The position numbers and the translations under genes were made by a program. DNA of 62,543 bases, filler included, from Hausera hauseri (lineage: Eukaryota): assembly GCA_046269625.1 (NCBI GenBank). It is 10 parts of 10 records of this genome, joined end to end, with 100 filler letters (N's around TTAATTAATTAA, not from the genome) between each part and the next. Parts side by side here need not be neighbours in the genome. Positions count along the whole stretch, not along the records: positions 37,749 to 44,358 come from JBJURY010081880.1; positions 44,459 to 51,464 come from JBJURY010044109.1; positions 51,565 to 56,673 come from JBJURY010332714.1; 7 more parts are not named here. One strand, given 5' to 3'. The notes beneath the pieces were generated by a model. The model was not told the origin of the DNA. It searched no databases and saw only the letters and a list, made by a program, of their open reading frames with translations. Of the stretch, positions 29,343-60,699 are shown one piece after another (positions within the stretch are counted from its first letter, which is position 1; every line of letters starts with the position of its first letter).

Positions 29343-29583
29343 ATGTCTCACTTGATACAACTCATTGGTTTATACCACTCATTCGACGCTCTCAGAAACC
29401 ACCTGTACAATCTCGATCGGCCCTTGGACAATGTTTGGTATTTGTCTCCTAAAGAGCTACTCCTACTTGCTGAGCAGAATTGGAGAAAACGGAAACCCAA
29501 CTTACGCCATATGAAGCAGGTTGCTGGTGATATGGAATTTTTATTCTGTAAGATTTTTCGCACATATGGAAAAATGGCTGATT
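29343..29583 (+). CDS. Hypothetical protein of the Polinton-like locus, copy 2 (truncated by contig end)
   Basis: Homolog of ORF 19870; preceded by the conserved TATA box. Confidence 0.55.
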
Positions 29584-37862: not shown

Positions 37863-39941
37863 ATGGTACATTACCCGGTAGCTAAACCAGGAAAATCATT
37901 GAAATTAACCCGCACAGGTAAAGGACCTTACTTAATAGTAAAGGTCACAGCTGAGAATATCTTCATTGAAAAAGGCACTAGTAAAAAGGCTAGAATTGAA
38001 TGTGTATCAGCCCAACGAGTTACGAAAGGACCAAAAGAACCAAAACCTAAAGAAGAACCTCGATATTCATTGCGATCAACTAAGCAACCAACCTTAAAAC
38101 CATCCTGTAGTTTAGAACAACTATTTCTTATAGTCATGATTTTTGGTCTAATGTTATCAACTACAGCACAAACCTTAATAACAAACCCTATAATCACAAA
38201 TCTAGAATTACGAGTGAAAATTACCTGGCAGAATTCCACAAACACAGTAAAAGGATTATTTGTAGGAGAATCAAAATACAAAGAGATTACACAACTGATC
38301 CTATCACCAGAAGTTAATGACGCAATATGGTTATCAACCAAACGTTGTTCAAACCTCCTATTAAATGAAATTTGTCTTTTAGATCTTTATTTCCTAAACA
38401 CTGAAATGTTGTTGAAACCAAAGCAGAAGATACTGCCTATAGCAAGACAGGTATATGTGGAAAGAATCGGCTCTACCTTTTTCTTTACTCAAGAGAAAGA
38501 CAATGAACCAAAATTAATAGACAAAGTAATGATAAAAAGACCAACCCTCACCAACGACGTTGATTTACAAATAACTTATTACTTCCCTAGACTGTTTAAA
38601 CATAAGTCAGGAGAAAAAGCCCTGAACTTCCATATTAATATGCCATTATTGAAATTCTTTCAAGTATGCCAAACAACGACATTAATTATAGCCACCTTCG
38701 TAACTTCTAGTAATAACCAAATTATCACTAAATTAAACAAAATGCCTGAGATAATCATTAGTCCATCAGATTTATATATTGAATTTAAAACTTTACAACT
38801 AGTAAAAAACCCCATATCCATAACGTGTGTAGGAAAATATCATAATATATACACCGTCATAAAAGAACATGAACGAATAACCAGATGTACTGACCTTCAA
38901 CCCGATGAAGAATACTTGATTGTCTTCACACAAAATTATGCCAAAACACGACATCAAACAATCCGAACTAAAACCAGAACGGAAAAATATTTGATGCATG
39001 AAGAAGTTCCGATTTATACGCAGTTACAACTAGCAACCAAACCTAGTATGCAAACAGATACATTGAGGATTATAGTCCCTTCCATTATAATAATACTCCT
39101 CTTACTATCCATATCTACACCCTTCGTAATAATAGAAATAAAAAGATTTTCCCAAAAACAAGCTATTATGAGTAAAACCCTGTTATTAACAACACATTTA
39201 ATATGTTTGGCGAGTGTGGAGTGGATAATCGACGTTGAGGAAGATAAAAATTTTAAAAATCCTAGAGGATATAATTCAAGTTTCAAATACCTAAAAAAAC
39301 ACACACGTTATAAACTAATACATACATTAAAGAGCAATACCAAGTTTCAACCAATAAAATTACGATACACTAGTGATACAATAACACCAATCAAAAAATA
39401 TAGTAGGGTAACCACCTACCCTAAAGATGGGCCATTAAATAAGACCCACCATAGTAATCATTCTTCTTTCAGCAAAATAAGTTTTCAAAAAGATCAAGAA
39501 CAAAGCAATATGGAGATACAAGATGTCGACTTAGACGCCCGTGACTCAGATTCCGATGCATCAACCGAAACCGTGGTGTATAACCCTAAAAGAAAGGTTA
39601 TACCACCATGTCATAATTCCTTTACATTTCAAAATCCTACTCAAGGATTAGGACTTTCAAGAGGGATATTGGCAAAGCAAACAATTCAGAACTTACCAGT
39701 AACAATGGTAACTCCACCACGAATTCAATCTGTAGTTGAAGTTCGAAAAAAGGGAATAGATATTAATGATCTACCAAGGTATAAACAGACCAAATTACAA
39801 TTACAACTCCAGGAAAACCTCTTAGATAATGAAAAATATCGACTCAAAACTAAGCCATGGATTGATTTATACAATAAATCAATTCTCGTATATGACGCCG
39901 GAAAAATATGTATCCAAGCAAGTTTTATCATAGGCTTATAG
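37863..39941 (+). CDS. Integrase C-terminus read through into signal peptide, ectodomain with FN3-like segment, TM and cytoplasmic tail
   Basis: GPY motif; LFLIVMIFGLMLSTTAQ (signal-like); CTDLQPDEEYLIVF..QTIRT (FN3-like LxPxxEY); IIVPSIIIILLLLSISTPFVII (TM). The frame is open from the contig start. Confidence 0.7.
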   Translation: MVHYPVAKPGKSLKLTRTGKGPYLIVKVTAENIFIEKGTSKKARIECVSAQRVTKGPKEPKPKEEPRYSLRSTKQPTLKPSCSLEQLFLIVMIFGLMLSTTAQTLITNPIITNLELRVKITWQNSTNTVKGLFVGESKYKEITQLILSPEVNDAIWLSTKRCSNLLLNEICLLDLYFLNTEMLLKPKQKILPIARQVYVERIGSTFFFTQEKDNEPKLIDKVMIKRPTLTNDVDLQITYYFPRLFKHKSGEKALNFHINMPLLKFFQVCQTTTLIIATFVTSSNNQIITKLNKMPEIIISPSDLYIEFKTLQLVKNPISITCVGKYHNIYTVIKEHERITRCTDLQPDEEYLIVFTQNYAKTRHQTIRTKTRTEKYLMHEEVPIYTQLQLATKPSMQTDTLRIIVPSIIIILLLLSISTPFVIIEIKRFSQKQAIMSKTLLLTTHLICLASVEWIIDVEEDKNFKNPRGYNSSFKYLKKHTRYKLIHTLKSNTKFQPIKLRYTSDTITPIKKYSRVTTYPKDGPLNKTHHSNHSSFSKISFQKDQEQSNMEIQDVDLDARDSDSDASTETVVYNPKRKVIPPCHNSFTFQNPTQGLGLSRGILAKQTIQNLPVTMVTPPRIQSVVEVRKKGIDINDLPRYKQTKLQLQLQENLLDNEKYRLKTKPWIDLYNKSILVYDAGKICIQASFIIGL

Positions 39942-41533
39942 AACTCACAGAAGATTCGACAGATGTACTATTCCTACAAAGTAAATATCTAGAAAATAGT
40001 TTGAAAACTTCGACCATTAATGAACGATCCTTCCGTATAATAAAAATTGACAATCCATGTTACAATGTCAAATTAGAAGAATTCCTTAAACTACAAGAAC
40101 CTTTTGAAAAAATACTCCTGCACGTAGCGAAAGGAAGAATTCAACTACGAGCACATACGGATACCTATGAAAGTATCAACCCAAAACAATCAGTTTTAGA
40201 TTCTAAATCTACCATGAAAATCAATAATATTGCGTTTAAAACGCCTCTCTATTTCAGAATACTACTAACCCCAGTAGTATTAAGCGTCGAAATATGTCAA
40301 GCATTGGATGAAAACTTAGGATTTCAAGAACCATTATTTCATCAAAGACCACAAGAAGATGTATCAAACTTCCAACTTTCAACAGTTTGTAATTATCGAT
40401 ACCTATCAGTGTCGCTCGCATATGCTCCAAACGGAGACCCGTTACCAGTAGAAGTTATGGTCGCAGACGAAGCAAAATTGCTTATCTATCACGCGTTTCT
40501 CAACCCCAGGAGAAAAATCTCTAACACTAACGAGCATATTCATGGACTATCATTATCCATCATAGAAGAGGCAGAAGATGAAGAACTAGTAAGAAAAGAG
40601 CTCGTTAAATATCTGTATGGGTACATCATTATTAGTGCTAATACAAGCACTATTCTCAAAGCTTTAAGGATACCGCAAACCTTTTTATTCGGAATTATCG
40701 ATTTATTATCTATATCCAATACAAAAAGAAGATTCGAGGAAGAGAAGATAAAATTAAATCTCACGCAATTGCCACGGGTATATGGATTTCAAACGGACTT
40801 CCCTAAAACAGCTGAATCCATAATCCAAGTCATAATGGATATTTACACCAAAATCACTGATTCATGTTCCAACGAACATTGGGAACATAGTTGGATTCCA
40901 CCGTTTCACAATCTAATCGATTATGGGAGCTTCGAAACAATACCACAGAAATATCATATGAATTACAAATACGAAAAAATAGTGGAAAATAACATCACAG
41001 AACCAAGAGTTGAATCTCCAATTAAAAAATTGAAGTTGCAAACCAATGCAATTATGGACAACCTTAACCAGAAGGAGAAAATCGTTTTTACTCAATTGTC
41101 CATTCTAATTTATGGACATATGAATCATATCATCAATGTCAAATTTACAAAAGAGCCAAAAACGACTCTTAATCAATGGAGGCAAATAGTCCCAACCGAG
41201 CTGTTTGGAAAAGTAGTGGGACTAGTTTACAAACACTCTATATATAATACCTTACATCTGGCAATGATCGGGATATATTTTGATATACTAAAAGAAGTAC
41301 AGCACAGTCCTATATTGACTAATCAGCCAATACCGGTACAAATGGATATGGTACCAATACCAAATCCACGAGGAAAAACAATCAAATTACGCAACTCCGG
41401 AAAATCCAACATTAAAATGTTACTATTCGCCAAAAAAGACGAATATACGCTGGAAAATCTCTACCAAATCGCGACAGTGATCCAAACTGAAGAAGAAATG
41501 GACATCCATAAAGACTTTTTTATCCAATTATGA
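39908..41533 (+). CDS. Retroelement accessory ORF (541 aa) with degenerate DEDDh (REX4/ISG20-like) exonuclease domain
   Basis: YLSVSLAY..PVEVMVADEAKLLIYHAFLNPRRKISNTNEHIHGLSLSIIEEAEDEELVRKELVKYLYGYIIISAN..LKALRI..IIDL follows the REX4-like pattern, but the ExoI DxE is absent. Overlaps the upstream ORF by 34 nt. Confidence 0.6.
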   Translation: MYPSKFYHRLIELTEDSTDVLFLQSKYLENSLKTSTINERSFRIIKIDNPCYNVKLEEFLKLQEPFEKILLHVAKGRIQLRAHTDTYESINPKQSVLDSKSTMKINNIAFKTPLYFRILLTPVVLSVEICQALDENLGFQEPLFHQRPQEDVSNFQLSTVCNYRYLSVSLAYAPNGDPLPVEVMVADEAKLLIYHAFLNPRRKISNTNEHIHGLSLSIIEEAEDEELVRKELVKYLYGYIIISANTSTILKALRIPQTFLFGIIDLLSISNTKRRFEEEKIKLNLTQLPRVYGFQTDFPKTAESIIQVIMDIYTKITDSCSNEHWEHSWIPPFHNLIDYGSFETIPQKYHMNYKYEKIVENNITEPRVESPIKKLKLQTNAIMDNLNQKEKIVFTQLSILIYGHMNHIINVKFTKEPKTTLNQWRQIVPTELFGKVVGLVYKHSIYNTLHLAMIGIYFDILKEVQHSPILTNQPIPVQMDMVPIPNPRGKTIKLRNSGKSNIKMLLFAKKDEYTLENLYQIATVIQTEEEMDIHKDFFIQL

Positions 41534-41732
41534 CTCTTTCGCTTTAACTCATGTATTACTGCATAACACTTTTGTCTTAATTTATACTGTTGTATTTCTG
41601 TACCTTATTTTTATTGTGACACTTTATACCTCATAACAATTTGTATTTTCTTTATTTTTCTTGTAACCAGAGAGAATCGATTTCACGTAACTATTTAATT
41701 AAAATTTTTATTACAAAGGAAAATTTTCTTCT

Positions 41733-41760
41733 AAGGGGGGGGAGATGTTGAGATGTTGCG
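41733..41760 (+). promoter_or_regulatory. Polypurine tract and start of 3' LTR (TGTTG at 41746); LTR end not determined
   Basis: AAGGGGGGGGAGA|TGTTGAG, 200 nt after the last stop codon. Confidence 0.8.
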
Positions 41761-42286
41761 AAATGATTTAAAAGAGCAATGCTTAAATTAATTAGTTTAA
41801 ATAGTTTATTAACTTAGATGTTGCGAAATACTAGCAAATAAAGCAGAATTCTATCTGAATGAAGTACACAAATGACTTGCAAGCAATTTTAGAACATTAT
41901 AATGCCTGTTTCAATAAATTTTTATGAACGATTCATCGTACCATGTCATAGTAATTATCATCACGTTGCAGAACCAGTGATAGAACATAGTGCAAATGTA
42001 GATGGTTATGAAACCGTTGAGTGCAGAATGAAATTGTAAATTGAAATTGTAAATTTCATTATCATACAGATAATGCAGCTAATAACTTAAAAATAAGTTA
42101 GTCAATCAAGTTATATGATTTCTAAGTTTTAGTAGCTGATGATTTTCAACTCTTAAATAAGTATTGCTTTAGCTATAACAAATTCATGATTTATACAAAT
42201 ATTTTGAATTATTATTCATTGCTTTCTGTATTAGCAAAATAATTAACTAGCATAAGCGACACTCACAATAACAATAAAAATTCGTG

Positions 42287-42466
42287 TACAGGTTGGCAAG
42301 AACGACATTGCATGTGGACTCAATTCCGCAGTAGCAAAATTGTATTTGAGGCATACATCCATTTCACTCCATGAAACTCAGCTATATGTTCATTTTATAA
42401 TAATGCTTCATCTGCTTAAGTCACTCAATGTGCACGTCCACACGCAATGTCGTTCTGGGTCCGTAT
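42287..42466. mobile_element. Small MITE-like inverted-repeat element
   Basis: agaacgacattgcatgtggac (42299-42319) is the reverse complement of gtccacacgcaatgtcgttct (42436-42456) with one mismatch; TA dinucleotides lie just outside. Confidence 0.55.
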
Positions 42467-43362: not shown

Positions 43363-44470
43363 CTGCAGTCAACACGTGGATAAAGAAACAGCCATTCTTT
43401 AAAAGAAGAAACAATAATGTCTGGCTTGATAGAAGCTAAACGAATCAGGAGTCCTCATTCTTCTTCTCTATTAACTCTTTAACAACGTTTTTACCAGTGT
43501 TTCCCTCAGAAGTAGCTCTTATGATGAGCTCAGCAAATACTCAGTTCCAGCAGCTGTTTGCTAATTACTGCTGGCTAGTCTGAAGGAGCAAAGTGGGGGA
43601 AGTTTGGAAACTGTAGCTTCATCTTGTCTTTTCGCTTCAACAGTTTAGTTTCCAAAGTGAAATAAACCAAACAAACTTATTTTACACAGAGAGGCAAATT
43701 AAATAATTTTTCTGACTGTAGCCATCAAATTTTACAACTCAGTGTCTGTTTACTCTGGACTCATTTTTCACCCTCACCTAAACAAAAACACTGAGTCTGA
43801 CTCACTGAAGCAGGAATAAAACATTGTAATGAAATAGGAATCAACATTAAAACCTGTTAACTTCTGATTACTCACACAATGTGATTGTTTAGTCCATGTG
43901 TGTGAAGACACTGAGTCCATTCTGAATTTTTTTACGCATTGTCTACATTGCAGTGAAGTGCTGATGTTTTGCTATATGACAGATGGACTATTGTGGAGCA
44001 AGATAAAAACTGGCCTCAATGACAGCTGGGGCAGATGGCCTGAAGAGGGCAGCGTTTACCTTCCTACCGTGCAACAACTCGCACACAAAAAAGGCTTTCA
44101 TCCATAATTACTTTCAGCAAGGTTTTCTTAATCCTGAAAACTCAGTCTGGAACATTAATGGATTTCATTATTATTAAAAGTAAAAAACAAAAATAGTTTA
44201 TAATTTACAAAGATTAATTCAGCTCTTGCAAATATATAAGATTATATGTGCTTTAGTTCTCTGCAGGTCTTTAGTAATGCAGGTGAACATAGCATGAGCT
44301 AATTACAAAATGTCTGAGCGTTTGTTGGAAAAACTTCAAACTTACATCTGAGCGTGAANNNNNNNNNNNNNNNNNNNNNNNNNNNNNNNNNNNNNNNNNN
44401 NNTTAATTAATTAANNNNNNNNNNNNNNNNNNNNNNNNNNNNNNNNNNNNNNNNNNNNGTATTACTGTAG

Positions 44471-45232
44471 ATAAAGAATAACGGATACGCCCATGAGCTG
44501 AGCTATAGACTTTATTTCCGAGGAAGGATACTAGACGAGACAGAATTATTGATAGAGGTTGGAATTATACCAGGAGAATTAAACCGGTTGGTCGTAACCA
44601 CCACTATCGATGAAACAAAAGAAGAGGCCATAAGGAAGGCTAAGGCAGAACAACAAGTAAGACAAATAATAGGAGTCCGAGATGCAAAAGTATATTTCGA
44701 GTACCTGCAAACAGATGAAGATAATGAGCAATATAATAAAAATTTAGTACCGATCGATGGCAGTGTACCTGCTATAACATAACAAAAGCGTCCTAACGAC
44801 AGAACACGGCAAATGCGGGAGGAGATCGACTATAATGAAGACTTAATCAGAGAATTGAGGCAGATGTCCATATCAACCTTTAATGCGGATAATGAGGAGC
44901 TGAACGAACTTATGAAAAATTTGATACGAATAGTAAACCACTCTAACCTCGGTGGTGATATATTAGACGAGAAGGAGAAGGCCATAGCGAACGCCGCCAA
45001 GGCCATGAAGAACCTCCGGTGTAAATCAACCAAAAGTACTTTAAGCGATGAAATGATAATTGGGAAAATTATGGTCGAATATACCATAAAAGAATTAAGA
45101 AAAGTACTGCTATATCTGGCCATCAAAACTAACTCAAATAGAGGAAATGAATTTAACAAGGCTACTAGCTTGGCAAGGAAGGCTGCCAAGAAGCTACCCC
45201 GAGAAGTGAACTGGTGGATTCTTCTTCGATAA
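44471..45232 (+). pseudogene. Upstream ORF with ubiquitin-like domain and helical region
   Basis: The frame of ORF 44549 extends 5': SYRLYFRGRILDETELLIEVGIIPGELNRLVVT (compare ubiquitin [31 protein letters not shown]); homologous to 14100-14230. Confidence 0.6.
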
Positions 45233-45289
45233 CAATAGATTCGGAGATCTGCTGCAAAATATAACTGGAAATCACAGAGAAGATGAATC

Positions 45290-47150
45290 AAATTGGCTAA
45301 TCAATTTTTTGACCATGATTATGTTAATAAGGCAAATGGGCGCAGTCACGGTATATGATTGTGACAAATTTAGACTTGGCCAAAAATATTCGTTAATGGA
45401 CTTGGAAATGTGCGAAGATGCGAGGCCCCACAGATTAGAAACAAAAGAGAAAAATTATATACTATAACAACAACGTGAACTAGTTATGCTGGATGGAGCA
45501 GAATGTATGTTACGCCAATCTCGCAGTATCTTCCATTCTGGACTGGTACATGGACACTCATCAATAATCAAGCCAACAACACCACTAATTCCGATGAATC
45601 TAGAACGTCAACATTGTAAGCAAGCTAGAGTAACGGGGAAAATAAAATGGGACAGTATGGAACTAGAAATGCAACAAGGGAAAATAATCAGAGTGTATAA
45701 AGTAGCTGCAGGACGGCTGGACATGCACACCGAACATTGTTATGGCGTGGAATATGATACCGGGAAGGGATTGGAGTCAAACGTCGTGGTAGTGAATTTT
45801 TACGAAACCAAAATGCGTATTCAGAAAGTGATGTTTCATAGTGTTACTAAATTTTACACCGAGAACCACAAGTGCCACATTCAGGATGGCACATGCCCTT
45901 TTCGAAGTTCCGTAGTAATTTTGGAACCCACAGCCAAGACCGATTGCAACTTGATCAGAATTAAAGAACTTAAATTCAACGAGACGACAGGAAAACGATA
46001 TATAAGTAGCACAGAAACTAACTCTAAAACAAGAGAATATGTAGCTGAACAGTCTACACCCACTATATTGATTTGTGATACTCATGGATTAAAATTTGTA
46101 AAGAAAGCTATGCTCACCAGATGCGACGTCATAATGTATGCCACCAACTATGAAGTATTTTTCGTAGCCGAAACAGAAATAAACACCAGAACGTTCAAAC
46201 TCGAGACTCAGGACATCCGGATTAAAGAAGAATTGAAAAAAAAAAACAACTCCTTCGACTATAAAGGACAAGCTGGAATAGCTGAGTTGTACCACAAGAT
46301 GATAACAAACGACTGCAAATTGGATTTGGAAATCATGAGAACTAAACAAGCTCTACTATACGCAAATCCGGAGTTGGCATCACCAATAATTTTGATAAAA
46401 AAAGGTGTTTTAGACAAGTAACCGGAGAAGTCTTATTGACGTATGAGTGCGAGAAGAAAGACGTACCGATTAATGCGGAAGAGAAGAGGTGTATACAAGA
46501 GCTTCCAGTGATGTATCAAGACGTACCGGGGCTAGTAACACCAATTACCAGAGTACTATTGGCTAATGCTACTCAACCGACAATTTTAAAAGACTAAAAC
46601 CAGCTTAGGAGAGCCGATGTTCAGACGTAGCGAAACCGATTGGGTAAGTTTACCGAACGGTGGTATTATTGCACCACTTGCCAAACTGACAGGAACAAAT
46701 CTGATAAAAGGAATAACCGATAATAAGTTTCAAGATACAGCCGCAAAAGGTATTTATCTACGAAAAGAAGTAGAGGTGTTCAGACAATTTCTCGCTTTTT
46801 CTCGCCAACGTACACATAAATTAAACAGAGCAATGCATACAATATTACAGGATTCGCGTTACCAAGCAAAATTGGATTCATTACTTGGTGTTGGCTATTA
46901 CAAGAAGGTAAGTACAAAAATATTATACAAAATTTGGGGAAGATTCCTGATATTCGGACAAGCCGCGTCAGGATTTCTAGCGAGATACTTCTTATTTCAA
47001 CTGGTACAAGCTATAATTCAAGAAATTATAAATGGATATGAAATATTCACCTTGACAGGATTTTCGTGCAAAATTTTAACGGCTATTATTACACCTTTCG
47101 GTAAATTCTTAAAGGATTATAAAGAAAGTAAATGGAAAACACATGTGGAA
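45290..47150 (+). pseudogene. env: Chuvirus-like envelope glycoprotein
   Basis: Signal WLINFLTMIMLIRQMGA, then VTVYDC..QKYSLMDLEMC; ECMLRQSRSIFHSG..HSSII; AAG..HCYGVEY; KCHIQDGTC; ELYHKMITNDCKL..NPELA; TGEVLLTYEC..CIQELPV..VTPITRVLL; PMFR..DWV; AAKGIY; IWGRFLIFGQAASGFL..INGYEIFTLTGFSCKILTAII. Confidence 0.85.
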
Positions 47151-48092
47151 CGACATGTTGGCTACTATAATCGGAAAAGCAAAAGGCACATATTCGATTA
47201 TAGTCAAAAATTCATAAATGATAAGACACGAAGAAATAATTCCGAACATGACGAGCCTAAGGGAGGAGACGTCATCTCCAGGCCGAGTAGGCACAAAAAC
47301 TACTCTGTTATGAAACTACCATTACCAATATTGCCAACAACGGCACCTCTATATGAAGATTGCGAGAAACAATCTATGAGCTCGTGCCAGATAGACATCT
47401 ATCGGAAGCCGCGTAGTTTAGAAGATCCTTACGAAGGAGCAAAACGCTATGGGATATTGCGCAAGATCCACGAAACGGATAGAACCTCGACTCCACATCA
47501 TCGATCAGCCATCGACGACCACGGTATAATTTACTCACCTAGAATACCTAAGCCAAACAAAACGCAATTTACTCGAAGCTGTGAGGCACGAATTCTCCGA
47601 AACCCAGATGTTCAGCCGCCAGTTAGAAACCAAAGAGTAGAAAATGCGAATGGCACGAATAACGAACTATACCCAATTGGAGAGTTTAGACAATTAATCG
47701 ATCAGCCAGTTGGAACCACTGAAGTTACCATCAAAGGCTACAAGGTGTCCACGGTACGACACCCCAAAACAGCATCAAGTTATTACGGTACCGTAATCGA
47801 AGGTAGGCCTTTCGCAAAGATTCCATTGGAAGATTGGGAAGTTTACGCATTAACAGATACAGGATCTGAAATATCACTGATAAAATATGATTCGACACCT
47901 GCATTCCTACGGAGACAATTGTACCCGCCTCCTGCGATGGATCCAGGAAGCATCGGAGCTTTCGGACAGTCGTCAAAAAGTAAATTCCGTTGGAAACCAG
48001 AAATTCACATAATGGGGCAATCTTTTCGTCATGAATTCTCAGTAATGGAGCAATTAACGGACGATGTAGTGTTAGGGTGTGACTTATTGTGA
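46617..48092 (+). CDS. Continuous ORF joining glycoprotein C-terminus/TM, a Pro/Arg-rich linker and the aspartic protease
   Basis: A single 491-aa frame contains both FGQAASGFL (G membrane region) and VYALTDTGSEISLI..DDVVLGCDLL (protease). Confidence 0.88.
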   Translation: MFRRSETDWVSLPNGGIIAPLAKLTGTNLIKGITDNKFQDTAAKGIYLRKEVEVFRQFLAFSRQRTHKLNRAMHTILQDSRYQAKLDSLLGVGYYKKVSTKILYKIWGRFLIFGQAASGFLARYFLFQLVQAIIQEIINGYEIFTLTGFSCKILTAIITPFGKFLKDYKESKWKTHVERHVGYYNRKSKRHIFDYSQKFINDKTRRNNSEHDEPKGGDVISRPSRHKNYSVMKLPLPILPTTAPLYEDCEKQSMSSCQIDIYRKPRSLEDPYEGAKRYGILRKIHETDRTSTPHHRSAIDDHGIIYSPRIPKPNKTQFTRSCEARILRNPDVQPPVRNQRVENANGTNNELYPIGEFRQLIDQPVGTTEVTIKGYKVSTVRHPKTASSYYGTVIEGRPFAKIPLEDWEVYALTDTGSEISLIKYDSTPAFLRRQLYPPPAMDPGSIGAFGQSSKSKFRWKPEIHIMGQSFRHEFSVMEQLTDDVVLGCDLL

Positions 48093-48329
48093 CAACTTCC
48101 TAATATAGCAATCGATTTCAACGCAGGCAAATTGATAGAACTTGGTCCAATAAAGGGAGTTAAATCCACCAAAGATAGAAAGTTTTGAGAAGTGTGGATC
48201 CCGGTAGATAAAAACGTACCACTCAGAACAGAAATACTCATATATGTTCAGATTCGTCAGGATGACGATTCCACTTAAGAAAAACCCGGGTCTAACGATG
48301 AAATAGACTTATAGGATCAAAAGATGCCG

Positions 48330-50898
48330 AAATGGTATCTTCCTCCACACTAATTAATGCCAGAGATAACCAAACAGGTTGAACGAATGTTAAAGGCCGA
48401 CATAATTAGACCAAGCTACAGATTTTGGTATTCAACTATACTCATGGTTAAGAAGAAAGGTACCAGTAAGCACCGATTTTGCATCGACTATCGAGCATTA
48501 AACACACTTATGATGAAGGATTCCTTCCCGTTACCATCGGTAAGAAAAGCTTTGGACAGACTTTAAGGAGCTAAATGGTTTACCACGTTCGACTTACAAT
48601 CCACGACTGGCAGGTAGAGATAAAGGAAGATCGCTACAAAACGGCATTTAAAACACATGATGGTATATACGAATTTCATGTTATGCCATTTGGAATAACT
48701 ACCGGACCAGCCATCTTTACACGCATGATGAATTAGATGCTAATGAGACTGGAACACGCGTTCACCTATTTAGATGACGTCATGATTGCCTCGAAAACGG
48801 AAGAGGATCATTTAAAAGACATTGGAGGTACACTCATGAGATTGGAGCAAGCTGGATTAAAGCTGAATCCGAAGAAGTGCAAATGGGCTCAAAATGCTGT
48901 ATCGTACCTTGGACATATAGTTGGAGAAGGAGGGTCGAAGCCGGATAAATCATTATTAAGTAAGATATCGGATTGTATGGAACCTCAGAATCACAAGGAA
49001 TTAAGACACAGGTTAGGTCTGTGTGAATATTATGCAATCTACGTACCAGATAACGCAAAGATAAACGCACCTTTATACCGCTTACTCAAAAAAGGGATTA
49101 AATTTAAATGCACCGATATACAACAAAAAGCTTTTGACGAAATGAAAAAGATTCTAACTAGTGAACATGTTCTACGGTACCCCGACTTTAACCTACCGTT
49201 CATAATAAAAACAGACGCCAGTGAGGAAGGTATCGGATATGAACTGGCTTAGAAACTAGAAGACGAGGAGCTAGAACATCCGATCGCATACGGAGGAAGT
49301 TCCCTAAAAAGGCCGAGAAGAACTATTCTGTTACGGAGTTTGGAACATTAGCAGTGAAAGAAGCCCTGCGAAATTTTAACGTGTACGTCTATGGACAGAA
49401 AATTGTAATCGTTACTGATCATAAGGCAGTCACGACTTTAAAGGGTAGAGCAAATAATCCGACGTGTAGATTAACAGATGGATAGAGGAAATCTCACGTT
49501 ACAACATTGAATTCCAATACAAACCCGGAAATAACCATGTCGATGCCGACGCATTATCAAGACTTAAAACCAAAATAAGCGCAGTTACAATAATGAGGAA
49601 AGCACACCTTGAAGATGTAATAGAAATACAAGAAACTCTCACATTAGATAAGGCGTTAAAGATTGCCGTCGAACAGAGAAAAGACAAGGTTATACAGCAG
49701 ATTATCGAGTTCGTTGATGCCAACGTGACATCAAAGGGTCATCAGCTACGGAAACACCTACGATGATATGGTCACAAATACTGCGTCGCTGGATACTTGA
49801 ACCACGAAAATGTGCTATACTACGAACGAAAAGGACGAAAATTAGTCGTCATACCGAAGGAATTACGAGCGGAAGTACTCATGGCCGAACATGATTCACA
49901 CTTAGCCGGACACATTTCGTGGAAAAAGACATGGGAAAGGATATTAAATAAGTACTATTGGCCGAGCATTTACATTGACGTGAGAAATTGGGTAGATGCT
50001 TGTGAAGTGTGTGCGAACAAGCAGACAAAAATGAAAAACTACGTCGCTGAGCTTAAACCTATCGATGTGCCCGATCGACCAATGCAAGCAATGTCTATGG
50101 ATATTGTAGGACCATTACCTACGACCCACAAAAACAACAAATATATTTTGACCTGTGTAGATCGATTGACTCATTTCGTCGAGCTTATAGCGTTAATAGA
50201 CCAAAGGGCAGAGACTGTGGCAGAAGTAGTAGTTCGGAAAATTATTTGCAGATACGGACCACCCGAACAAATTTTGACGGATCGAGGAAGAAACTTCACA
50301 AGCGAATTGTTCGACAAAATTAAAAAAAATTTTCAGATTGAACGACTAACTACCACAGTTTATCATCCCCAATGTAATGAGATGGTCGAACGAATGAACT
50401 CGACAGTTATACGGATTTTATCGACGGTAGTCGCAAAAGACCAGAAAGATTGGGATGAATTCTTAGAAGGTACACAATTCGTTATCAATACTACCCCGCA
50501 TCCTGCGGCAGGCTTTACTCCGTTTTTCATGATGTACGACAGAGAAGCTATACTGCCTACAGATCTAGGATTGATTCCTTACACAAAGAAAACTGGAAGA
50601 TTTGGAACAGAATTTTGTCGAGGTATTACAATTGAGATTACACAGGTGTTGGGAAATATCCAAGGAAGTATCTAAAGAATACCAGGAACAATTCAAGAAG
50701 CAATACGATAAGAAGGCTAAACCACATGATCTAGAACCTGGAAACTGGGTTTATGTGTACTATCCAGTGGCAAAGAAAGGCACATCTCTTAAGCTTACCA
50801 AAACAGGTAGAGGACCTTATGAAGTTACCAAGGTTACACCAACCACGGTTTATCTAAATAAAAAGGTAAGGAAGAGGTCATATCAATTCAGAGAGTAG
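48330..50898 (+). pseudogene. pol: Gypsy pol: RT, RNase H, integrase with GPY module
   Basis: RFCIDYRALN..DSFPLP; MPFG; TYLDDV; GLKLNPKKC; IKTDAS; YKPGNNHVDADALSR; HDSHLAGH..CEVC; MDIVGP, LTDRG, MVERMN; KTGRGPYEV. The RT-RH-IN order is Ty3/Gypsy. Confidence 0.95.
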
Positions 50899-50933
50899 TT
50901 AAAACGGAAATAAGACCAGACAAACGCTATAAT

Positions 50934-51287
50934 TTGCGTTCGAGCAAAACAAATAAAGAAACACAAACGTCATCAATGGTGACCAGACCAATATTTTATG
51001 TGCAAATAGTCCTGGCCTTATCGTTAATCGCTTCGTATGTACCGAAGGTGAAATTGATAAGTCAAACCGAAAAATTACAAAATGCAGCAAGACGAAGAAA
51101 TACCCAAAACTTCCAGTCACTTAGAGTACACGATATAGATTGGAGCAAACCATGTGCGTGGTTCGAAGTAGGTGAACCCATTCAGACTTATGTGAAATTT
51201 CAAATAATATTTGTAACTAGATCCACGATGCGAACATGCGATTTTCCGTACGGACATCACAAAAGATGTTGTGATTTGGATTTTTGA
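50934..51287 (+). pseudogene. Post-integrase signal-like segment and Cys-rich domain
   Basis: RPIFYVQIVLALSLIASYVP..CAWF..TCDFPYGHHKRCC is homologous to RPISYIQIFLALSLISSYIP / HCDIPYGSQEGCC at 61713-62060. Confidence 0.7.
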
Positions 51288-54200
51288 CACGCCTACGGGC
51301 ACAGATTTCAAATGTTTTATTCTAATCAGTTTGGAGCTCAAGCTTATATAATTACAAAACTCTTAATAAGAATGCCCTAACGAAAGAACGCAAATCAAGC
51401 CAAGACGGACGAAATAATCCGAAGCACTGACCCATTTAAAAGACTCTTAGACTATAACATTATTNNNNNNNNNNNNNNNNNNNNNNNNNNNNNNNNNNNN
51501 NNNNNNNNTTAATTAATTAANNNNNNNNNNNNNNNNNNNNNNNNNNNNNNNNNNNNNNNNNNNNACTAACCGTGAATCAAAAACGTGACAGAATAAAGTG
51601 ATTATGTAGTGATTGATTATTCATAGTAACAACAGCGAAGTCTATTAATCTACGATCATCTAGTGGGTGCTGCATCAAAATGCCAGATTGTCAACAAGAT
51701 GGCTGAGAAAATTGAAATATGGTGTCACATCACTTAGCACTGAGCAGAGGTTGTCTATATTGATATGAGCGCTTGCGATTGCAATTCTCATTATTTGTAA
51801 ATGAGTCGCTTTTATCTTTTCCATATCTGTCTTTCACTTGAAATTGCAGTTTGGCTTTCAATGGGTTATATGTTGTGTGTCTCATCAAGCGTAATATTGC
51901 GATAAATTGTATGTTGCAGTATTATAATTTATGACAAATTCAATGATATAGTTGTAATGCGGTTAATATTATAGGGATTTTGAATTAGTTGAAATTTCTC
52001 CACAAACTTTCCAGCGCTATACTGCTAGTCGGAATTTTACCCGTTCTATAAATTCTACAAGTACAAAGTTTTATGATGATAAATAAAATGAAACAATTTT
52101 TTGCACAGTACAGTGAGATTATGCAATATGGACTTCTAAATGTTATGTCATCTACTTCCATTTCCAGTTTGTCAATCATGTTATGTCAAAATACAATGTA
52201 TTTGTTTAATTATCAGTTACATCATTAATATTTCTTCCTTCTACATAAATATTAACTTTACACATAAACGATAAAACATTATCAGATGGAAAACTCTTAT
52301 TATCAATGTGGTGCTGTTCTTTTTGTTTGATTTTTAAAATTTTATCTGGAGCTCAGTTACACAGAAGTCAAAATCAATACTGATATGGCCGTATTCTAAT
52401 AAGGTCTATATTTTTAAACAGTCGTAACATACCGGTTTATCGATTACATTTCTAATGATCTGAATAGTTGCAAAGCAACAAAGTTGTGCAATAGAAATAT
52501 TGTTTAACATACCGGATTCACACCGCAAATCCTATATTTTAACAAAAGGGGTGTTTCGGGAAAGCCGATAGTACTCTGATTTCATCGCGCGATAACAGCC
52601 ATCGAGACAGTACTTGAAACTCACCGGTCCCGACAATCCACACTACTCCTCTAGCCGTAACGAATCGCATGTTGCCAACAAACTAATAGTATCGAAATTT
52701 AAAACTGTAAGCGAAGGTTTAAATTACAACAAAATAAGAAAAGGATTGGAAAATTACCAAATAGCTCATTATTTGAATATTCAAGTTTCGTCGAATATTA
52801 TTTTCTCAACCATCGGTAGAGAATAAGTGGTACGAGAGTTGAAATAATATTTGAGCAAAAATTGATTTTAACATTGATGAAATTAACAGTTGTTGTTTTT
52901 CCTATTTCTAATTTCAACTCAGCCATTTTGTTTACCAGTCTACAAAGGCGGATGGGAAATTAGTTCACATACATGCATGCTCATGTGTCTGGTATGTTTC
53001 CACTACTTGTTATCGTAAAGATATTGGCAAATGAGATTAGACTATAATATTGGGGACAAAATTCGTGTTGAGTTATTTTTTGGAGAAAAATTGATTTTTA
53101 CTCACAATAAATTTTTTTATTTTCATTAAAGATTATCTACACCTGCTGGAATTCGAGTTACTCGATATTTTTTCGGACTCAAAACCAATGGTACTTATAC
53201 ACTTTACTTTAGACCTTTTTCGCACGTCTTCTCCAAATAGTTGTTATAACTATTCCATCGAAATTAAGAAATATTTACTCAATATTTGGTCTAATGCTCG
53301 AGTTTGTTGAACGCAATAGCCGCAGCACAGAAGGGTAAAATATGGTCGAAAAATGTGAGGATATTAGCAATCAATAGCACCTTACTGTTAGTGAGAGTTT
53401 TAAAGATTCTAAATTCCAAATATGGAAATGAATTTAACCAATCTAAATTACGCTTAAATTTACTGTCTTCTAGAAACTCAAAAATGTGGATTGATAAATA
53501 TTCCAACTTGTTTTTTCGAATCTGATATTACAGGAATTATTTAGTTTAAATAAAGAAATCCTTCATCTCTTCTATAACCATAATGGACAGAGTAACACAT
53601 CTAGGTATGAATCCTTACCGTTAGAAAGATGTTAGAAATAATTATTTATTTAGAAATATTCAACATTTAGCTTTCACCAAAAACAGTAAACTTAAGTATA
53701 TAATTACATAATATATTCGCATTTATCATGTACCAGCCCAATTAAGACAAGAATTATACAATCAAATAGACTCATTAACAAAAAGCTTTTATAATCATAT
53801 AATTGTAATACTAACAATAATTGCAACAATTAAATGTAATTACGAAACACTGAATTATCAAATGCAGTAAATCTACACGAAATCATCATGGATACGAACA
53901 GTACATTGTATATGTATTTTGGCTGAGAATGCAACATCGCGCTTCAGTGGTTGCACGTTTGTGTTATTCTAATCAATAGATTTGAAAATATTTTAAATTT
54001 TCGAATATAATCGCATAGTATCGTGCTCCATTGTTTGATTAAATCTGTCCAGTACGTTTCACATACTTACCAAGGGTGATTTTATGCAATTAATAACTTA
54101 AGATATTTAAATGAAATATATAATATAAAAATGATGTAAATTATGATGATAATTCCAATGCAATTAGTGTTTCAGAAGTCGGCGAGGATTTCAAAAGATT

Positions 54201-56575: not shown

Positions 56576-57333
56576 GTTGAAATAGTCTTCTCAAATCCTG
56601 TTTTTAATCTACAGCGTTAGAATGAACAGATGTACTCACGCTCAGCGTACCAGTAGGGTTTGATCAGTTCGTCNNNNNNNNNNNNNNNNNNNNNNNNNNN
56701 NNNNNNNNNNNNNNNNNTTAATTAATTAANNNNNNNNNNNNNNNNNNNNNNNNNNNNNNNNNNNNNNNNNNNNAAAAGAAGAGATAGGAAAACAATAAAA
56801 ATTACACTTACATCCATTCATGTCGATTACAATGATATAATGTAGTCTTTCAACAACAATTATTATTATTTTGAATGATGATATGCAGCAGTATATATAC
56901 CATTAGAATGTGTACAGTACAATGTAAGAAAAACAAAATAAACAAAATTCAATTATTTAAAATCACAAATAAATAAAAATCAATTAACTGTACAATCAGT
57001 TAATCAAAGTTTATTTATTCTCAATTTTGTCTAATTTTAGTTAATCGGTAAGTTTATTTATCTTCCTTTGGGATTTATTTGCTTTAATTTAGACTGCTGT
57101 TTCGAACAATGTAATGGTGGTTTTATGCTGTTGATATCCAGAATTTGGAGTGTACTAAAAAGGGAAAATGTGTAAAAATAGTTTAGTTTTATTTTTGAAT
57201 GCAACATATAATATATGTTATAATTCGACAATTAAGCAATAATGCAATTAAAAATTATAATGCCAGGATCTACAACAAGACAAAACTTGGGAAGCGTTAA
57301 CTTTAATTTAAAATAGCATTATATATATGTGTG

Positions 57334-58051
57334 TGTTATATTGGGGGTGGCCCTATATAACAATAAGTTAATCAATTTAATTGCTCTTTAGGCAGGTTAG
57401 GTTTACCGTTCTCGGTAAATCACGATGTGCCTTATTAGTTTAATACGTTTACAGTAGATGCAGGTAATGCGTGCGATATCCTGTGCAAGATTTAAATCAC
57501 TGCTCTTACCTGTATAAGTTTAAGTCAAAATGTATCCCTTAGGGTAGTCAATCGATCTTAGGGATTGATGATTAACTATCAAAATTTTAAAAGAAAACTT
57601 TTAAAATACAATGTAATTACCAAACAAAATCGATCAATCGTTTAAGAACCGTTTGTAGAATTTTCGCTTCTACTACTGTAACACTGAATAGAATTTTCCA
57701 ATCGGGAATACATAATCACTTTTGCATGATTTTTTCAGACTTCTCTCTCTATTCACATTCTCCATTGACTATTTATATTCGACTGGATATCGGATACATG
57801 TGACTGAATACTTTAGCTTTTTTCCAGCATTTAATTTTAGTTTGTAGAAGACTGTGATAAATAATTTTGATTTTTAGATCGTTATTTTTTCGAATAAATT
57901 TCAGAAAATTCACAGAAACTTTGAAAAATTCTTTAAAATATTCTAAAATATTGCTAATACCCATTTCTACTCCATAACAAAATTTCGTTTTTATACGTCA
58001 ATTATATACGAAATAATTTAGCAATTTATAATTCTGTACAGCTATGTTACA
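57334..58051 (-). repeat. Putative 3' LTR of Gypsy copy J (about 718 bp)
   Basis: Minus strand starts TGTAACA directly after the PPT. The candidate end is TATAACA at 57340-57334, next to a (TA)/(TG) run. No second LTR is available to confirm the end. Confidence 0.45.
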
Positions 58052-58063
58052 TTTCTCCTCCCT
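58052..58063 (-). promoter_or_regulatory. Polypurine tract of Gypsy copy J
   Basis: Minus strand AGGGAGGAGAAA|TGTAACA, about 50 nt after the last stop codon. Confidence 0.75.
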
Positions 58064-58111
58064 GAACGGCATACTCGCATGTGCCTATTGCGTCAGGAGA
58101 GGTGACGCCAA

Positions 58112-58873
58112 TTAGTGTCGTCGCAGGAAGTCCAGTCTACTCCGGAGAATACTGTCATCGATTGGGTCAGCAAGTAACCTGATTTCGTCAACTGCCTCTA
58201 AGGCGTAACTGTTGCTGGGCTGAATTTGGATTAATCGGTTACACTCGCCGTTCGAGAAATCTTTCCACGTTTCCAGGCAAGTGCGACAATATTTATGTCG
58301 GCATTCTTTGTTGTCCAGTTTAACGTATGCTTGCCAAATGTTTTCTTTACAAACTGAGCAGGTGTCTTCGTCTTCATTAGTGTTTTCGTCATCGAGGCCT
58401 ACTTTAGGGATACTCTTAATTTGTTCAAATACAAGGCCGACATGGTCGCAATATAGGTAGCCATAAAGTTCTTTTTGTTGAATGTTAATTGAACTCTTTC
58501 GGGAGTCATAGTTTACTGGGACTAATGTCCAATCTAAAACAGTTTCTTTATCCAGGTCCGGAACTGTGCCTTCCTTTTGGTATGTCTGGTATTGTTTCTT
58601 CAATATCAAGTTCATTTGGCCGTCCACAAGAATTGAAAGTTTACTTATCCTTTTTGATTTAAATACCCGGGCTAAGTATTGCCCTATTCTTGAATTTTCC
58701 CAAACATATGCACCTTCTGGGGTGTCGCGTGTTCCTGCGTTCTTCACGTAGATTATTGCTTCTTTCAGATTTTGATGGCTGCAGTACTCTGCAGTAATCA
58801 ATAATTTCGGGTAGTCTTTGATTGTCGAATAGTGGATATTCTCTTGGGATCTCTTTTTCTTAAGTATGTTCAT
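58112..58873 (-). CDS. Terminal retroelement accessory ORF with C3HC4 RING finger
   Basis: EDEDTCSVCKENIWQAYVKLDNKECRHKYCRTCLETWKDFSNGEC (last Cys pair incomplete). Confidence 0.7.
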   Translation of the reverse strand: MNILKKKRSQENIHYSTIKDYPKLLITAEYCSHQNLKEAIIYVKNAGTRDTPEGAYVWENSRIGQYLARVFKSKRISKLSILVDGQMNLILKKQYQTYQKEGTVPDLDKETVLDWTLVPVNYDSRKSSINIQQKELYGYLYCDHVGLVFEQIKSIPKVGLDDENTNEDEDTCSVCKENIWQAYVKLDNKECRHKYCRTCLETWKDFSNGECNRLIQIQPSNSYALEAVDEIRLLADPIDDSILRSRLDFLRRH

Positions 58874-59399
58874 TATGGTGAATATCTGTGTAAAATCGTT
58901 TTCCGACTTTCCTCCTGGTGCTTGGGTTCTACATTTTCGCAGAACCTTTCGGACTGGGATTCTACGTTTTGGGATTCTATGATCTTAGTGTTAGGTCGAA
59001 AAATTTTCTCTGTTTCCTTCTTTTCCTTTTGGGTTTCTATCTCCTTTGGAACTTGTTTTTCTTCGGGCAATTTGGCCTCTTTCCGATTTCCGTCTTCGCG
59101 ACTTTTTTTTTGAATAAATAATCATATAGTGGTAGTTTGCTTTTATTTATGGATACAGCGGCTTCGATTTCCTTCTCCTTATAGGTGCCGACTCTTCCCT
59201 GTTCCTTTTTCGGAATTTCAGGTATCTTAAAGGTTGTTTGTGGTTCAGCACTCTTTATTTTGGCCTTCGAGCTGAATCCGTAACTAATGCTAGGCCTGTC
59301 ATCCATATTTGGTTGAATAATAACTGATCTTGGGTTGGATCCTTGTATGGTTATTCGATAATTGCCTCGTTCCGTAGACTAAATAGTTTTAAAGGGAGA

Positions 59400-60650
59400 A
59401 TATGGTCAGAAATGTATTCTGTGTCTAGAGCTCAGTTTTTCTGGGTTAGTGGACCTTTGTAAGTTCTGACTAGGGCTGTCGGGAATCCACTTATGGTTCA
59501 ATTTTAATCCTGCATATACATCGCTTAAGTATTGGGAACGTTGGCTGGCTGTTAGCAATCGGCTTATTCTGACGTGTTTCCCACTCATTGCTTCGAGCAT
59601 CAACTTAAATCGGCCTTCAACGGTCGGTGGTAGGTATCCATTTCTTTCTTTAACGGTCTACCTTATCTCTTCTATTATCGTAGGGGGAGTTTCTATTTCT
59701 TGCTCTCCTGCTATATGCGTGATGAGTAGTTTCAATTTTTCCACGATCCATTCTACTTGATCTCCGGCAAGGATACATTCATACAAACAGTGGGTTAATT
59801 CATCACTGACCAGTTCCATATCCTTTCCGTGGGCCAGCTGTTCCTTTTTTAATCCAGTAACTTCTAAGTAAATTTCTATTATTCTTTTTCTGGGGCTGAT
59901 TATTGTCAAATAGATTTCCGTGCCTCATGTCTCTCGGATAGATATTTCGTTCGGAATGTCATTTCCATCGTCTCCTTCTCCACAATTCAACGATATGATT
60001 CTGGAGTTCCTAGCATCTTGTACTAATCTGAAAAAGTGTAGTTGTTCTTCCTGATCCCTTTCGGTAGGTTCCTGTTTAAATTGTAAGTGCGGAAATTGAA
60101 TGAAAGACGCGTTCTCACAGGTCATTTCAATCACCAGCTTAACTGGCAATGCAGCAACTCGAAAGTCTATCTCACAATTATAGTGATGGAAATCTCCGCT
60201 GTTGATCGGAAAGGTGCTGTAAAGATGTTGTCTTTCTTGCGAGGAGTCCCAAGCTTGATCTCTCAGCCGATAATAGATTTCGCCATCTGCTAGGTGAATA
60301 AATATATTCTGAGAGTAAACTGGTTCACATTGGATTAATTGTCGTAAGGCTCTCACATCTTTGTCGTCTCTCATGGCGTATAAACGTACTACTCTATTCT
60401 CTTCAGTGCTTCCTTTAAGATTATTAGGAATTTCACTGTTCTGTTTGTATTCAAGGAAAATTTTCCCTTGCAATTCATTATTAATTTGCTTGAATATCGA
60501 TCTGGATTGAGGTATTAGCACAGTTGCACAACTTTGTAGGAAATCGTCGATACTACGTCGCTCGGTTGTCGCGGTCATTTGAATTCTTACCAATCTGAAA
60601 AATAAACAATAAGGGTTTATACTACAACAAAGTATGGTTTTTTTAACCAA
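59400..60650 (-). pseudogene. Accessory region with degenerate DEDDh exonuclease-like domain
   Basis: RIISLNCGEGDDGNDIPNEISIRET*GTEIYLTIISPRKRIIEIYLEVTGLKKEQLAHGKDMELVSDELTHCLYECILAG aligns with the exonuclease-like block of ORF 39908-41533. Confidence 0.6.
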
Positions 60651-60699
60651 AACCAGTTCTTTGTTTGATGATAGAATAACCCGACCTGTAATTGTCAGA

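What the first reader, a model, noticed from the sequence alone, without database searches (positions are those of the whole stretch)
44459..51464. Ty3/Gypsy family with a chuvirus-like envelope glycoprotein placed before, and fused in frame to, the protease/pol
Seen: one 491-aa ORF (46617-48092) runs from the glycoprotein membrane region into the DTG protease, and a second diverged copy (10048-14466, minus strand) has the same G-PR-RT order. Known: env in retroviruses and errantiviruses lies 3' of pol, and chuvirus G capture is described for BEL/Pao elements (Anakin, mosquitoes). Inference: this is an independent capture of a negative-strand RNA virus fusogen by a Gypsy lineage, occupying the position normally held by gag. 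Pol would be made as a membrane-tethered precursor. Two diverged copies argue for a functional architecture rather than a chance insertion.
Basis: partly seen in the sequence, partly recalled or inferred. Interest (0 to 1): 0.93.

Follow-up and report, generated by a model that had tools for sequence, protein, structure and literature searches.

The report
Decayed Burro-like enveloped planarian retroelement
This is a broken, internal piece of a retrovirus-like jumping gene, likely from a planarian flatworm, whose viral-type membrane-fusion gene sits in frame in front of its enzyme genes, an odd layout that is real but was already described for the planarian Burro elements.

Summary
One 491-aa ORF (46617-48092) runs from the membrane end of a chuvirus-like glycoprotein (Pfam PF24664) into a DTG protease, and RT, RNase H and integrase follow. 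An AlphaFold model of the ectodomain piece matches chu-like virus G and class III fusogens. Intact relatives encode G-PR-RT-RH-IN in one ORF, so this is no nested insertion.

The novelty claim fails. The envelope does not replace gag: relatives carry Gag or its zinc knuckle upstream, and this 7-kb contig likely begins after it. The layout gag-Ubl-BCL2-env-PR-RT in one frame, with env hitting mononegavirus glycoproteins, was published for planarian Burro elements in 2019 (PMC6431247); GAG-ENV-POL gypsy elements were catalogued in 2026 (PMC13524379). The 'second copy' is another family (23.5% G identity) on a separate contig, with its own G-PR junction broken. The host is likely a triclad. Two earlier scan notes found the same on other DNA.

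Left open: a second predicted membrane protein after integrase, and 3' exonuclease and RING cargo. Verdict: new, decayed member of a known kind; interest 0.22.

The parts
44519..44596 (+). C-terminal half of a likely ubiquitin/SUMO-like domain, cut by the contig start region
   Evidence: Best of 613 window pieces against a profile of four relatives, but only E 0.024. An alignment including it gave 6 ubiquitin-like chains among 7 PDB hits, at E about 1. Weak.
44783..45232 (+). Helical region in the slot where relatives carry a BCL2-like domain; identity not shown in this copy
   Evidence: No hit with BCL2-like profiles. Single-sequence model all-helical at pLDDT 43.9. Atlas gave no usable hit. 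Some X1 contigs carry extra letters at 45214-45217.
45297..45353 (+). Internal signal-peptide-like hydrophobic segment in front of the glycoprotein
   Evidence: Hydropathy 1.59. Intact relatives align from here. Cleavage is inferred.
45354..47150 (+). Chuvirus-like class III fusion glycoprotein (env), broken by a stop at 45465-45467 and by two frame changes flanking about 46412-46594
   Evidence: PF24664 in three collinear pieces. Model of 45468-46418 at pLDDT 81.4. Foldseek: chu-like virus G E 3.1e-14; Dhori virus glycoprotein and herpesvirus gB E 2.4e-4 to 9e-4.
46962..47090 (+). Membrane region of env: two hydrophobic segments
   Evidence: Hydropathy 1.38 and 1.22. The WGxF motif is shared by all 12 G-plus-protease polyproteins checked.
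46617..48092 (+). 491-aa ORF joining the env C-terminus, a linker of about 215 aa and the aspartic protease (DTG at about 47856)
   Evidence: X1 contigs cover every bin across it and do not carry its closing stop.
48330..49440 (+). Reverse transcriptase and RNase H, in pieces
   Evidence: RVT_1, RT_RNaseH and RT_RNaseH_2. Best PDB hits are 4ol8 (RT/RNase H, E 3e-19) and Ty3-G Gag-Pol 7q5b (E 1.2e-18). 42-52% identity to intact relatives.
49767..50898 (+). Integrase (H2C2, core and C-terminal tail), in pieces
   Evidence: Integrase_H2C2 E 1.7e-19 and rve E 1.1e-14.
50862..51464 (+). Start of a post-integrase ORF with a signal-like hydrophobic segment (50976-51032), cut by the contig end
   Evidence: Hydropathy 1.76. 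37.6% identity over 157 aa to the same region of contig S10.
10048..14466 (-). Contig S3, a second and distant family: BCL2-like (13359-13679), env (about 13355-11560), linker, PR (11049-11237), conserved PR-RT spacer (10612-11025), start of RT
   Evidence: spacer E 1.3e-14; BCL2-like profile of relatives E 1.4e-9.
56774..62543 (-). Contig S10, 3' end of a close relative of S8: integrase tail, post-integrase ORFs, RING ORF (58112-58984), then a purine tract and TG, the likely LTR start
   Evidence: 71% nucleotide identity to S8 over 543 bp. zf-C3HC4 E 6e-5. Tract read.
37749..42290 (+). Contig S7, first part, 3' end of a third family: integrase tail, membrane-protein ORF, exonuclease-like ORF (39896-41533), purine tract at about 41735, likely LTR from 41746
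   Evidence: 47% identity to the S8 integrase tail. Homology to the RNase_T ORF of L001, E 2.2e-7. Sequence read.

Best explanation
Contig 44459-51464 is a decayed internal 7-kb piece of a Ty3/Gypsy LTR retroelement of the Burro-like GAG-ENV-POL kind, likely from a triclad flatworm, in which a chuvirus-like class III fusion glycoprotein is encoded in frame before the protease, and its intact relatives would make capsid, envelope and enzymes as one polyprotein. Shown: domain order, env-PR fusion, class III fold of the model, intact single-ORF relatives with Gag upstream, and a repeated family in run X1. Inferred: the polyprotein is threaded into the ER by the internal signal segment before env. 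Host signal peptidase would free the env N-terminus, leaving the Gag-Ubl-BCL2 part in the cytosol. The env membrane anchor would return the chain to the cytosol, where the aspartic protease would cut itself, RT-RNase H and integrase free. Env trimers would then let particles bud into membranes and fuse with other cells, as class III fusogens do. A second signal segment and anchor after integrase would give a further membrane protein. This copy is dead: stops and frame changes lie in env, after PR, in RT and in integrase.
For: Pfam map. Model and fold searches. phmmer of the 500-aa ORF against 1.84 billion representatives gave 82 hits at E<=1e-3; of the 25 scanned, 10 hold G and protease in one chain, including 10 of the 11 scanned among the top 13. 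Full G-PR-RT-RH-IN single chains: P0001, P0009, P0084, P0086, L001 and L003. Gag or CCHC upstream of G: P0010, P0012, L002, L003. G tree: 2 window pieces and 11 retroelement G sequences form one side of a branch, SH-aLRT 100. RT tree: S8 with all 6 G-bearing polyproteins against 13 other Gypsy-type Pols, SH-aLRT 96. 17,346 X1 contigs laid on S8, 30 of 30 bins covered. A P450 on another contig of the window has Dugesia japonica proteins as best named hits (49% and 48%, against 34-39% for fish). Burro description in PMC6431247 section 7.
Against: Gag, both LTRs and the total length are not on the contig. The BCL2-like domain and the PR-RT spacer were not detected in S8, only in S3. The Ubl hit is weak (E 0.024). 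The spacer found no dUTPase in PDB. The integrase tree left S8 unplaced. The G tree is the quick search, and both window rows are long branches. Foldseek TM-scores to PDB fusogens are only about 0.2. No named Burro sequence was compared by computation: the link to Schmidtea ENV rows is by eye. The host is inferred from a different contig. Processing, particles and fusion are untested.
Confidence: 0.87

Rival explanations
1. One reading: an independent capture of a negative-strand RNA virus fusogen by a Gypsy lineage, with G standing where gag should be.
For: No Gag is found in S8 or S3. The nearest viral structures are chu-like virus G. S8 is far from every relative found (20-27% G identity).
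Against: Both contigs are cut 5' of env. Relatives have Gag or CCHC upstream. The window's G groups with other retroelement G sequences, not inside the 18 Pol-free G sequences, which include three named chu-type viruses. The layout is in print.
Confidence: 0.04
2. A chuvirus G gene (an endogenous viral element) landed next to a Gypsy pol by chance, or the contig is an assembly chimera.
For: The copy is degenerate, and another contig of the window (S7) looks chimeric. Jingchuvirus G fragments next to Gypsy fragments are reported in insects (PMC10084718 abstract).
Against: One stop-free ORF crosses the junction. No internal repeat in S8. X1 cover is continuous across the junction. Six intact relatives hold G-PR-RT-RH-IN in one chain.
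Confidence: 0.02
3. Same element, other mechanism: the family copies itself inside the cell, env serves as a membrane anchor or cell-cell fusogen rather than as the coat of infectious particles, and Pol levels are set by splicing or read-through rather than by one 1:1:1 precursor.
For: No particle or infection data were found: a search for planarian, Burro, envelope and virus-like particles listed nothing relevant among 15 of 545 papers shown. L002 has a stop between its Gag-Ubl-BCL2 ORF and G. PMC13524379 says the entry mechanism of gB-type elements is unknown.
Against: L001, L003, P0010 and P0012 have no stop between the upstream part and G. The ectodomain cysteines and fold are kept at about 25% identity, which fits a working fusogen.
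Confidence: 0.25

Closest known systems
Burro / GYPSM1 giant gypsy-like LTR retrotransposons of Schmidtea mediterranea and Dugesia (Arkhipova and Yushenova 2019, PMC6431247, section 7 read whole; Grohme 2018 known only through it)
   Same: Env in frame in front of PR and related to mononegavirus fusion glycoproteins; BCL2-like domain before env (S3); Ubl before that (weak in S8, clear in L001 and L002); conserved spacer between PR and RT (S3); many copies; decayed fragments as reported for D. japonica; likely triclad host.
   Different: Size, Gag and LTRs cannot be seen. BCL2-like domain and spacer were not detected in S8. No MATH, BIR, ankyrin, AIR1 or SMC hit in S8 or S3. The post-integrase membrane ORF and 3' exonuclease are not mentioned in that section. 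The likely LTR in S7 looks about 0.5 kb long.
GAG-ENV-POL errantiviruses with HSV/gB-type env in Platyhelminthes, Nematoda and Bryozoa (Chary and Hayashi, eLife 2026, PMC13524379)
   Same: Ty3/gypsy Pol, class III env, env before pol. Nine flatworm elements are listed, six from Schmidtea, with up to 215 copies. Their ENV rows look by eye like P0003, P0009 and P0084.
   Different: Those are intact and this copy is not. The text does not use 'fused', 'single ORF' or 'Burro'. S8 is a distant lineage.
Anakin and other BEL/Pao elements with chuvirus G in mosquitoes (Dezordi 2020, PMC7642597; search listing only, plus passages in PMC13524379)
   Same: Same glycoprotein family carried by an LTR element.
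   Different: S8 has a Gypsy-type Pol with no Peptidase_A17 hit, while the BEL element in contig S6 has one.
Chuviridae / Jingchuvirales G and class III fusogens (herpesvirus gB, Thogoto/Dhori glycoprotein, baculovirus GP64, VSV G)
   Same: PF24664 family and fold.
   Different: 13-19% identity to Pol-free G sequences; embedded in a retroelement polyprotein.

Membership tests
Ty3/Gypsy | Pol order PR-RT-RNase H-integrase with Gypsy-type RT | tested here: met
Ty3/Gypsy | Two LTRs, primer-binding site, target-site duplication | not testable with these tools
   S8 is an internal fragment and no genome is held. A purine tract plus TG is seen only in related contigs S7 and S10.
Burro-like | Env in frame directly before the protease | tested here: met
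   ORF 46617-48092.
Burro-like | Env related to mononegavirus/chuvirus fusion glycoproteins | tested here: met
Burro-like | N-terminal Gag with CCHC knuckles in the same ORF | tested here: inconclusive
   Not on the contig (Gag profile: best S8 piece E 0.18). Present in relatives P0010, P0012, L002, L003.
Burro-like | Ubiquitin/SUMO-like domain before BCL2 | tested here: inconclusive
   S8 E 0.024; PDB E about 1; relative L002 Pfam ubiquitin E 0.0047. No profile hit in S3.
Burro-like | BCL2-like domain directly before env | tested here: inconclusive
   S3: Pfam Bcl-2 E 0.0084, below cut-off; relatives' profile E 1.4e-9; Bcl-xL and A1 fill most of the 60 PDB rows shown, best E 0.077. S8: not detected.
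Burro-like | dUTPase-like domain between PR and RT | tested here: inconclusive
   S3 keeps the relatives' spacer (E 1.3e-14), S8 gave no hit. No dUTPase hit in PDB or Pfam.
Burro-like | Giant size (over 30 kb with LTRs) | not testable with these tools
   Contigs are 4-8 kb.
Burro-like | Many copies in a planarian genome | tested here: inconclusive
   17,346 variant contigs in run X1 show a repeated family. The host is inferred from another contig.
GAG-ENV-POL gB-type errantivirus | Class III (gB-like) env placed before a Ty3/gypsy pol | tested here: met
GAG-ENV-POL gB-type errantivirus | Uninterrupted ORFs (the paper's inclusion rule for a copy) | tested here: not met
   Stops and frame changes throughout. 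This concerns the copy, not the family.
BEL/Pao (Anakin) | Pao-type Pol (Peptidase_A17, DUF1759, DUF5641) | tested here: not met
   Absent from S8 and S3, present in S6.

The most novel reading that the evidence does not exclude
These are deeply diverged Burro-like lineages of true infectious planarian retroviruses with a two-glycoprotein entry system cut from one polyprotein: the class III fusogen before the protease, and a second signal-anchored membrane protein after integrase that serves as the receptor-binding partner, with 3' exonuclease and RING cargo against host defence. A signal-like segment plus a later anchor follows integrase in 4 of 4 full-Pol relatives checked and in S7; it is not mentioned in the Burro section read, and one paper search found no description.
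Probability: 0.2. Interest if true: 0.55.

Novelty: new member of a known kind. Interest (0 to 1): 0.22.

Why it matters
As found, it adds distant, decayed members to a described group and shows that Burro-like elements span lineages only about 25% alike in env. It does not show a new capture or a new gene order. The open question it touches is whether these env-in-polyprotein elements form infectious particles and how one chain is sorted across the ER membrane. Intact relatives (P0001, P0084, L003) serve that question better than this broken copy. The conserved-looking membrane protein after integrase is the one lead worth a look.

Tried and rejected
No genome is held for the window. Word-based search with the 317-aa G piece among longer proteins: 0 of 902 candidates. 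Viral contigs with the integrase piece: nothing. Prokaryote genome contigs with alignment A4: 0 of 43 stretches. No RNA holder listed; this says nothing on expression. X1 holds 0.36 of the words, may be the source sample or a relative, and is not independent support; its depth is no copy number. The careful G tree did not finish, so the quick tree is reported; it used 29 of the stored G sequences, chosen as near full length. The integrase tree was uninformative. The single-sequence model of 44783-45229 was too poor to search. Atlas: no usable hit for that piece; RNase_T at 0.77 for the S7 ORF, a lead only. A profile of four post-integrase tails did not hit the tails of S7, S8 or S10 at E<0.9, so their homology to the relatives' tails is not shown. 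A fibronectin-III likeness seen by eye found no support in PDB or Pfam. Troyka (PMC12440569, abstract and outline only) was set aside, since its terminal signatures cannot be seen here. A fish host was considered because of the NANS exon in S7 and judged less likely: low depth in X1 and planarian best hits for the P450. Grohme 2018 was not obtained, and Sacco 2022 was seen only as a citation; both, and figures of PMC13524379 that could not be read, may already describe the 3' ORFs. Repbase and Dfam were not available.
Full report
Layout of the window. The window is not one locus. It is ten contigs of 4-8 kb joined by artificial spacers. The finding is the whole of contig S8 (44459-51464) and the 'second copy' is the whole of contig S3 (10048-14466). 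Both are cut at each end, so what is missing from them may simply be off the contig. No genome is held.

The observation. S8 carries a 500-codon open frame (46590-48092; 491 aa from the ATG at 46617). Pfam places the C-terminal part of the Monjiviricetes fusion glycoprotein at aa 48-180 (E 1.6e-17) and a retroviral aspartic protease at aa 405-500 (E 1.7e-4) of that frame. Two upstream pieces hit earlier parts of the same model in order. RT, RNase H and integrase follow, and the RT piece's best PDB matches are 4ol8 and Ty3-G Gag-Pol. An AlphaFold model of the unbroken 317-aa ectodomain piece, with 31 relatives as alignment, reached pLDDT 81.4 and pTM 0.53. Its best viral matches are chu-like virus glycoproteins (E 3.1e-14, TM 0.50). 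All listed PDB matches are class III fusogens: Dhori virus glycoprotein, herpesvirus gB, GP64 and VSV G (best E 2.4e-4; TM only about 0.2). S3 shows the same order, but its G-PR junction is broken and its G is 23.5% identical to that of S8. It is a different family, not a copy.

Is the fusion real? Yes. phmmer of the 500-aa frame against 1.84 billion representatives gave 82 hits at E<=1e-3. I scanned 25 of them; 10 hold G and protease in one chain. P0001 (2627 aa), P0009 (2855 aa), P0084 (3003 aa) and P0086 (4844 aa) run G-PR-RT-RH-IN without a stop, as do L001 and L003 from metagenome contigs. tblastn of these maps S8 collinearly. S8 has no internal repeat between G and PR. In run X1, 17,346 contigs lie on S8 and cover 30 of 30 bins; those covering the stop that closes the 491-aa ORF do not carry it. 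No single X1 contig spans the junction, and X1 may be the source sample.

Does G replace gag? No. P0012 has Retrotrans_gag at 79-173 (E 1.7e-4, just under the cut-off) before G; P0010 has a CCHC knuckle before G. L003 has a weak Ty3 capsid hit, CCHC, G, PR, RT, RH and IN in one 2693-aa ORF; L002 has CCHC and a ubiquitin-like domain, then one stop, then G in the same frame. The first 100 codons of S8 give the best, though weak, hit to the relatives' ubiquitin-like domain (E 0.024 among 613 pieces), which in L002 and P0010 lies downstream of the knuckle. S8 therefore likely starts after gag. S3 has a BCL2-like segment right before G (profile of relatives E 1.4e-9; Pfam E 0.0084) and keeps the relatives' PR-RT spacer (E 1.3e-14). 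Neither was detected in S8, and the spacer was not shown to be a dUTPase.

Is it an independent capture? The data do not favour that. In a quick maximum-likelihood tree of 31 G rows, the two window pieces and 11 retroelement G sequences form one side of a branch (SH-aLRT 100), apart from 18 G sequences not linked to Pol, three of which are named chu-type viruses. The tree is unrooted, both window rows are long branches, and the viral sample is only what the search returned, so it cannot give the direction or age of capture. In an RT tree S8 joins the 6 G-bearing polyproteins against 13 other Gypsy-type Pols (SH-aLRT 96); the integrase tree left S8 unplaced.

Host. A P450 on contig S9 has Dugesia japonica proteins as best named hits (49% and 48%), with fish at 34-39%. 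The assembly is therefore likely a triclad, not close to D. japonica. This is an inference across contigs. Contig S7 joins the 3' end of a related element to a sialic-acid-synthase exon (NeuB E 4.2e-28) that looks fish-like to me from recall; it has depth about 3 in X1, against 58 to 20,800 over the element's ORFs. A chimera or prey DNA is likely, but this is unresolved.

What is known. [quoted passage not shown] They also note decaying fragments in D. japonica. Chary and Hayashi 2026 (PMC13524379; abstract, Results parts 1-3 of 5, methods section 14, Discussion part 1 of 2, passages, rows of supplements 1 and 2) list GAG-ENV-POL gypsy elements with gB-type env in Nematoda, Bryozoa and Platyhelminthes, found 114 arthropod gypsy elements with the chuvirus-like glycoprotein, and argue for ancient rather than recent acquisition. 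Their six Schmidtea ENV rows resemble P0003, P0009 and P0084 by eye; I did not compute this. Dezordi 2023 (PMC10084718) and Kojima 2025 (PMC12440569) were seen as abstract and outline, Dezordi 2020 as a search listing, Sacco 2022 as a citation only, and Grohme 2018 not at all. Two earlier notes of this scan reached the same filing on other genomes; I had reached it before reading them.

How it likely works. Shown: order, fusion, fold, intact relatives and hydrophobic segments. Inferred from general knowledge of polyprotein viruses and class III fusogens: an internal signal segment (45297-45353) sends env into the ER; signal peptidase frees its N-terminus; the anchor (46962-47090) returns the chain to the cytosol; the protease releases the enzymes; env trimers coat budding particles and fuse them with other cells. 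Two hydrophobic segments lie at the anchor, so the side on which Pol emerges is predicted, not shown. The rival is intracellular copying with regulated Pol synthesis (confidence 0.25). This particular copy cannot work: it is broken in env, after PR, in RT and in integrase.

What is left that may be new. After integrase, P0001, P0009, P0084, P0086 and S7 each have a signal-like segment and a later membrane anchor; S8 and S10 have the first segment and are 37.6% identical there. A profile of the four relatives' tails did not find the window's tails, so only the arrangement is shown to be shared. Further 3', S7 and L001 share an RNase_T-type exonuclease ORF and S10 ends in a RING ORF before a likely LTR. 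The Burro section read does not mention the tail or the exonuclease, and one search (GYPSM1, Burro, planarian, retrotransposon, fibronectin) found no description. Papers I could not see may.

Verdict. Observation confirmed; interpretation partly supported; new, decayed member of a known kind. Interest 0.22.

Noticed in passing
window 1-62543: Ten unrelated contigs joined by N44-TTAATTAATTAA-N44 spacers; neighbourhood across spacers means nothing.
   Followed up: yes
window 37749-44358 (S7): 3' end of a related element (membrane ORF, exonuclease-like ORF, purine tract, likely 0.5-kb LTR) joined to a sialic acid synthase exon at 43087-43368 (-) with splice sites; fish-like by recall, low depth in X1. 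Possible chimera or prey DNA.
   Followed up: partly
window 56774-62543 (S10): 3' end of a close relative of the finding's element, with about 4 kb of decayed extra ORFs ending in a RING finger before a likely LTR.
   Followed up: partly
window 30090-35807 (S6): Open 1905-aa BEL/Pao polyprotein; the contig has strong CpG depletion (o/e 0.21) unlike the others.
   Followed up: no
window 14567-29583 (S4, S5): Two contigs about 75-80% alike over several kb; one piece hits protein-primed DNA polymerase B (E 5e-5), so likely decayed Polinton-type elements.
   Followed up: no
window 55381-56616 (S9): Intron-free 411-aa stretch of a cytochrome P450 with Dugesia japonica best named hits.
   Followed up: yes
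window 212-5148 (S1): Open frame of about 1640 aa with short internal repeats and a weak C-terminal C2HC zinc finger; no family found.
   Followed up: no
P0086, P0010, P0009, L001: Relatives carry several aspartic protease copies in one chain (six DTG-type sites in P0086, three each in P0010, P0009 and L001), one of them after integrase in P0009; P0086 also has ankyrin and C2H2 domains.
   Followed up: no
P0001: This intact G-PR-RT-RH-IN polyprotein is filed in NCBI under a Flavobacteriaceae MAG, likely eukaryotic DNA in a bin.
   Followed up: no
P0055: A chuvirus-like G fused behind immunoglobulin domains, 1000 aa.
   Followed up: no
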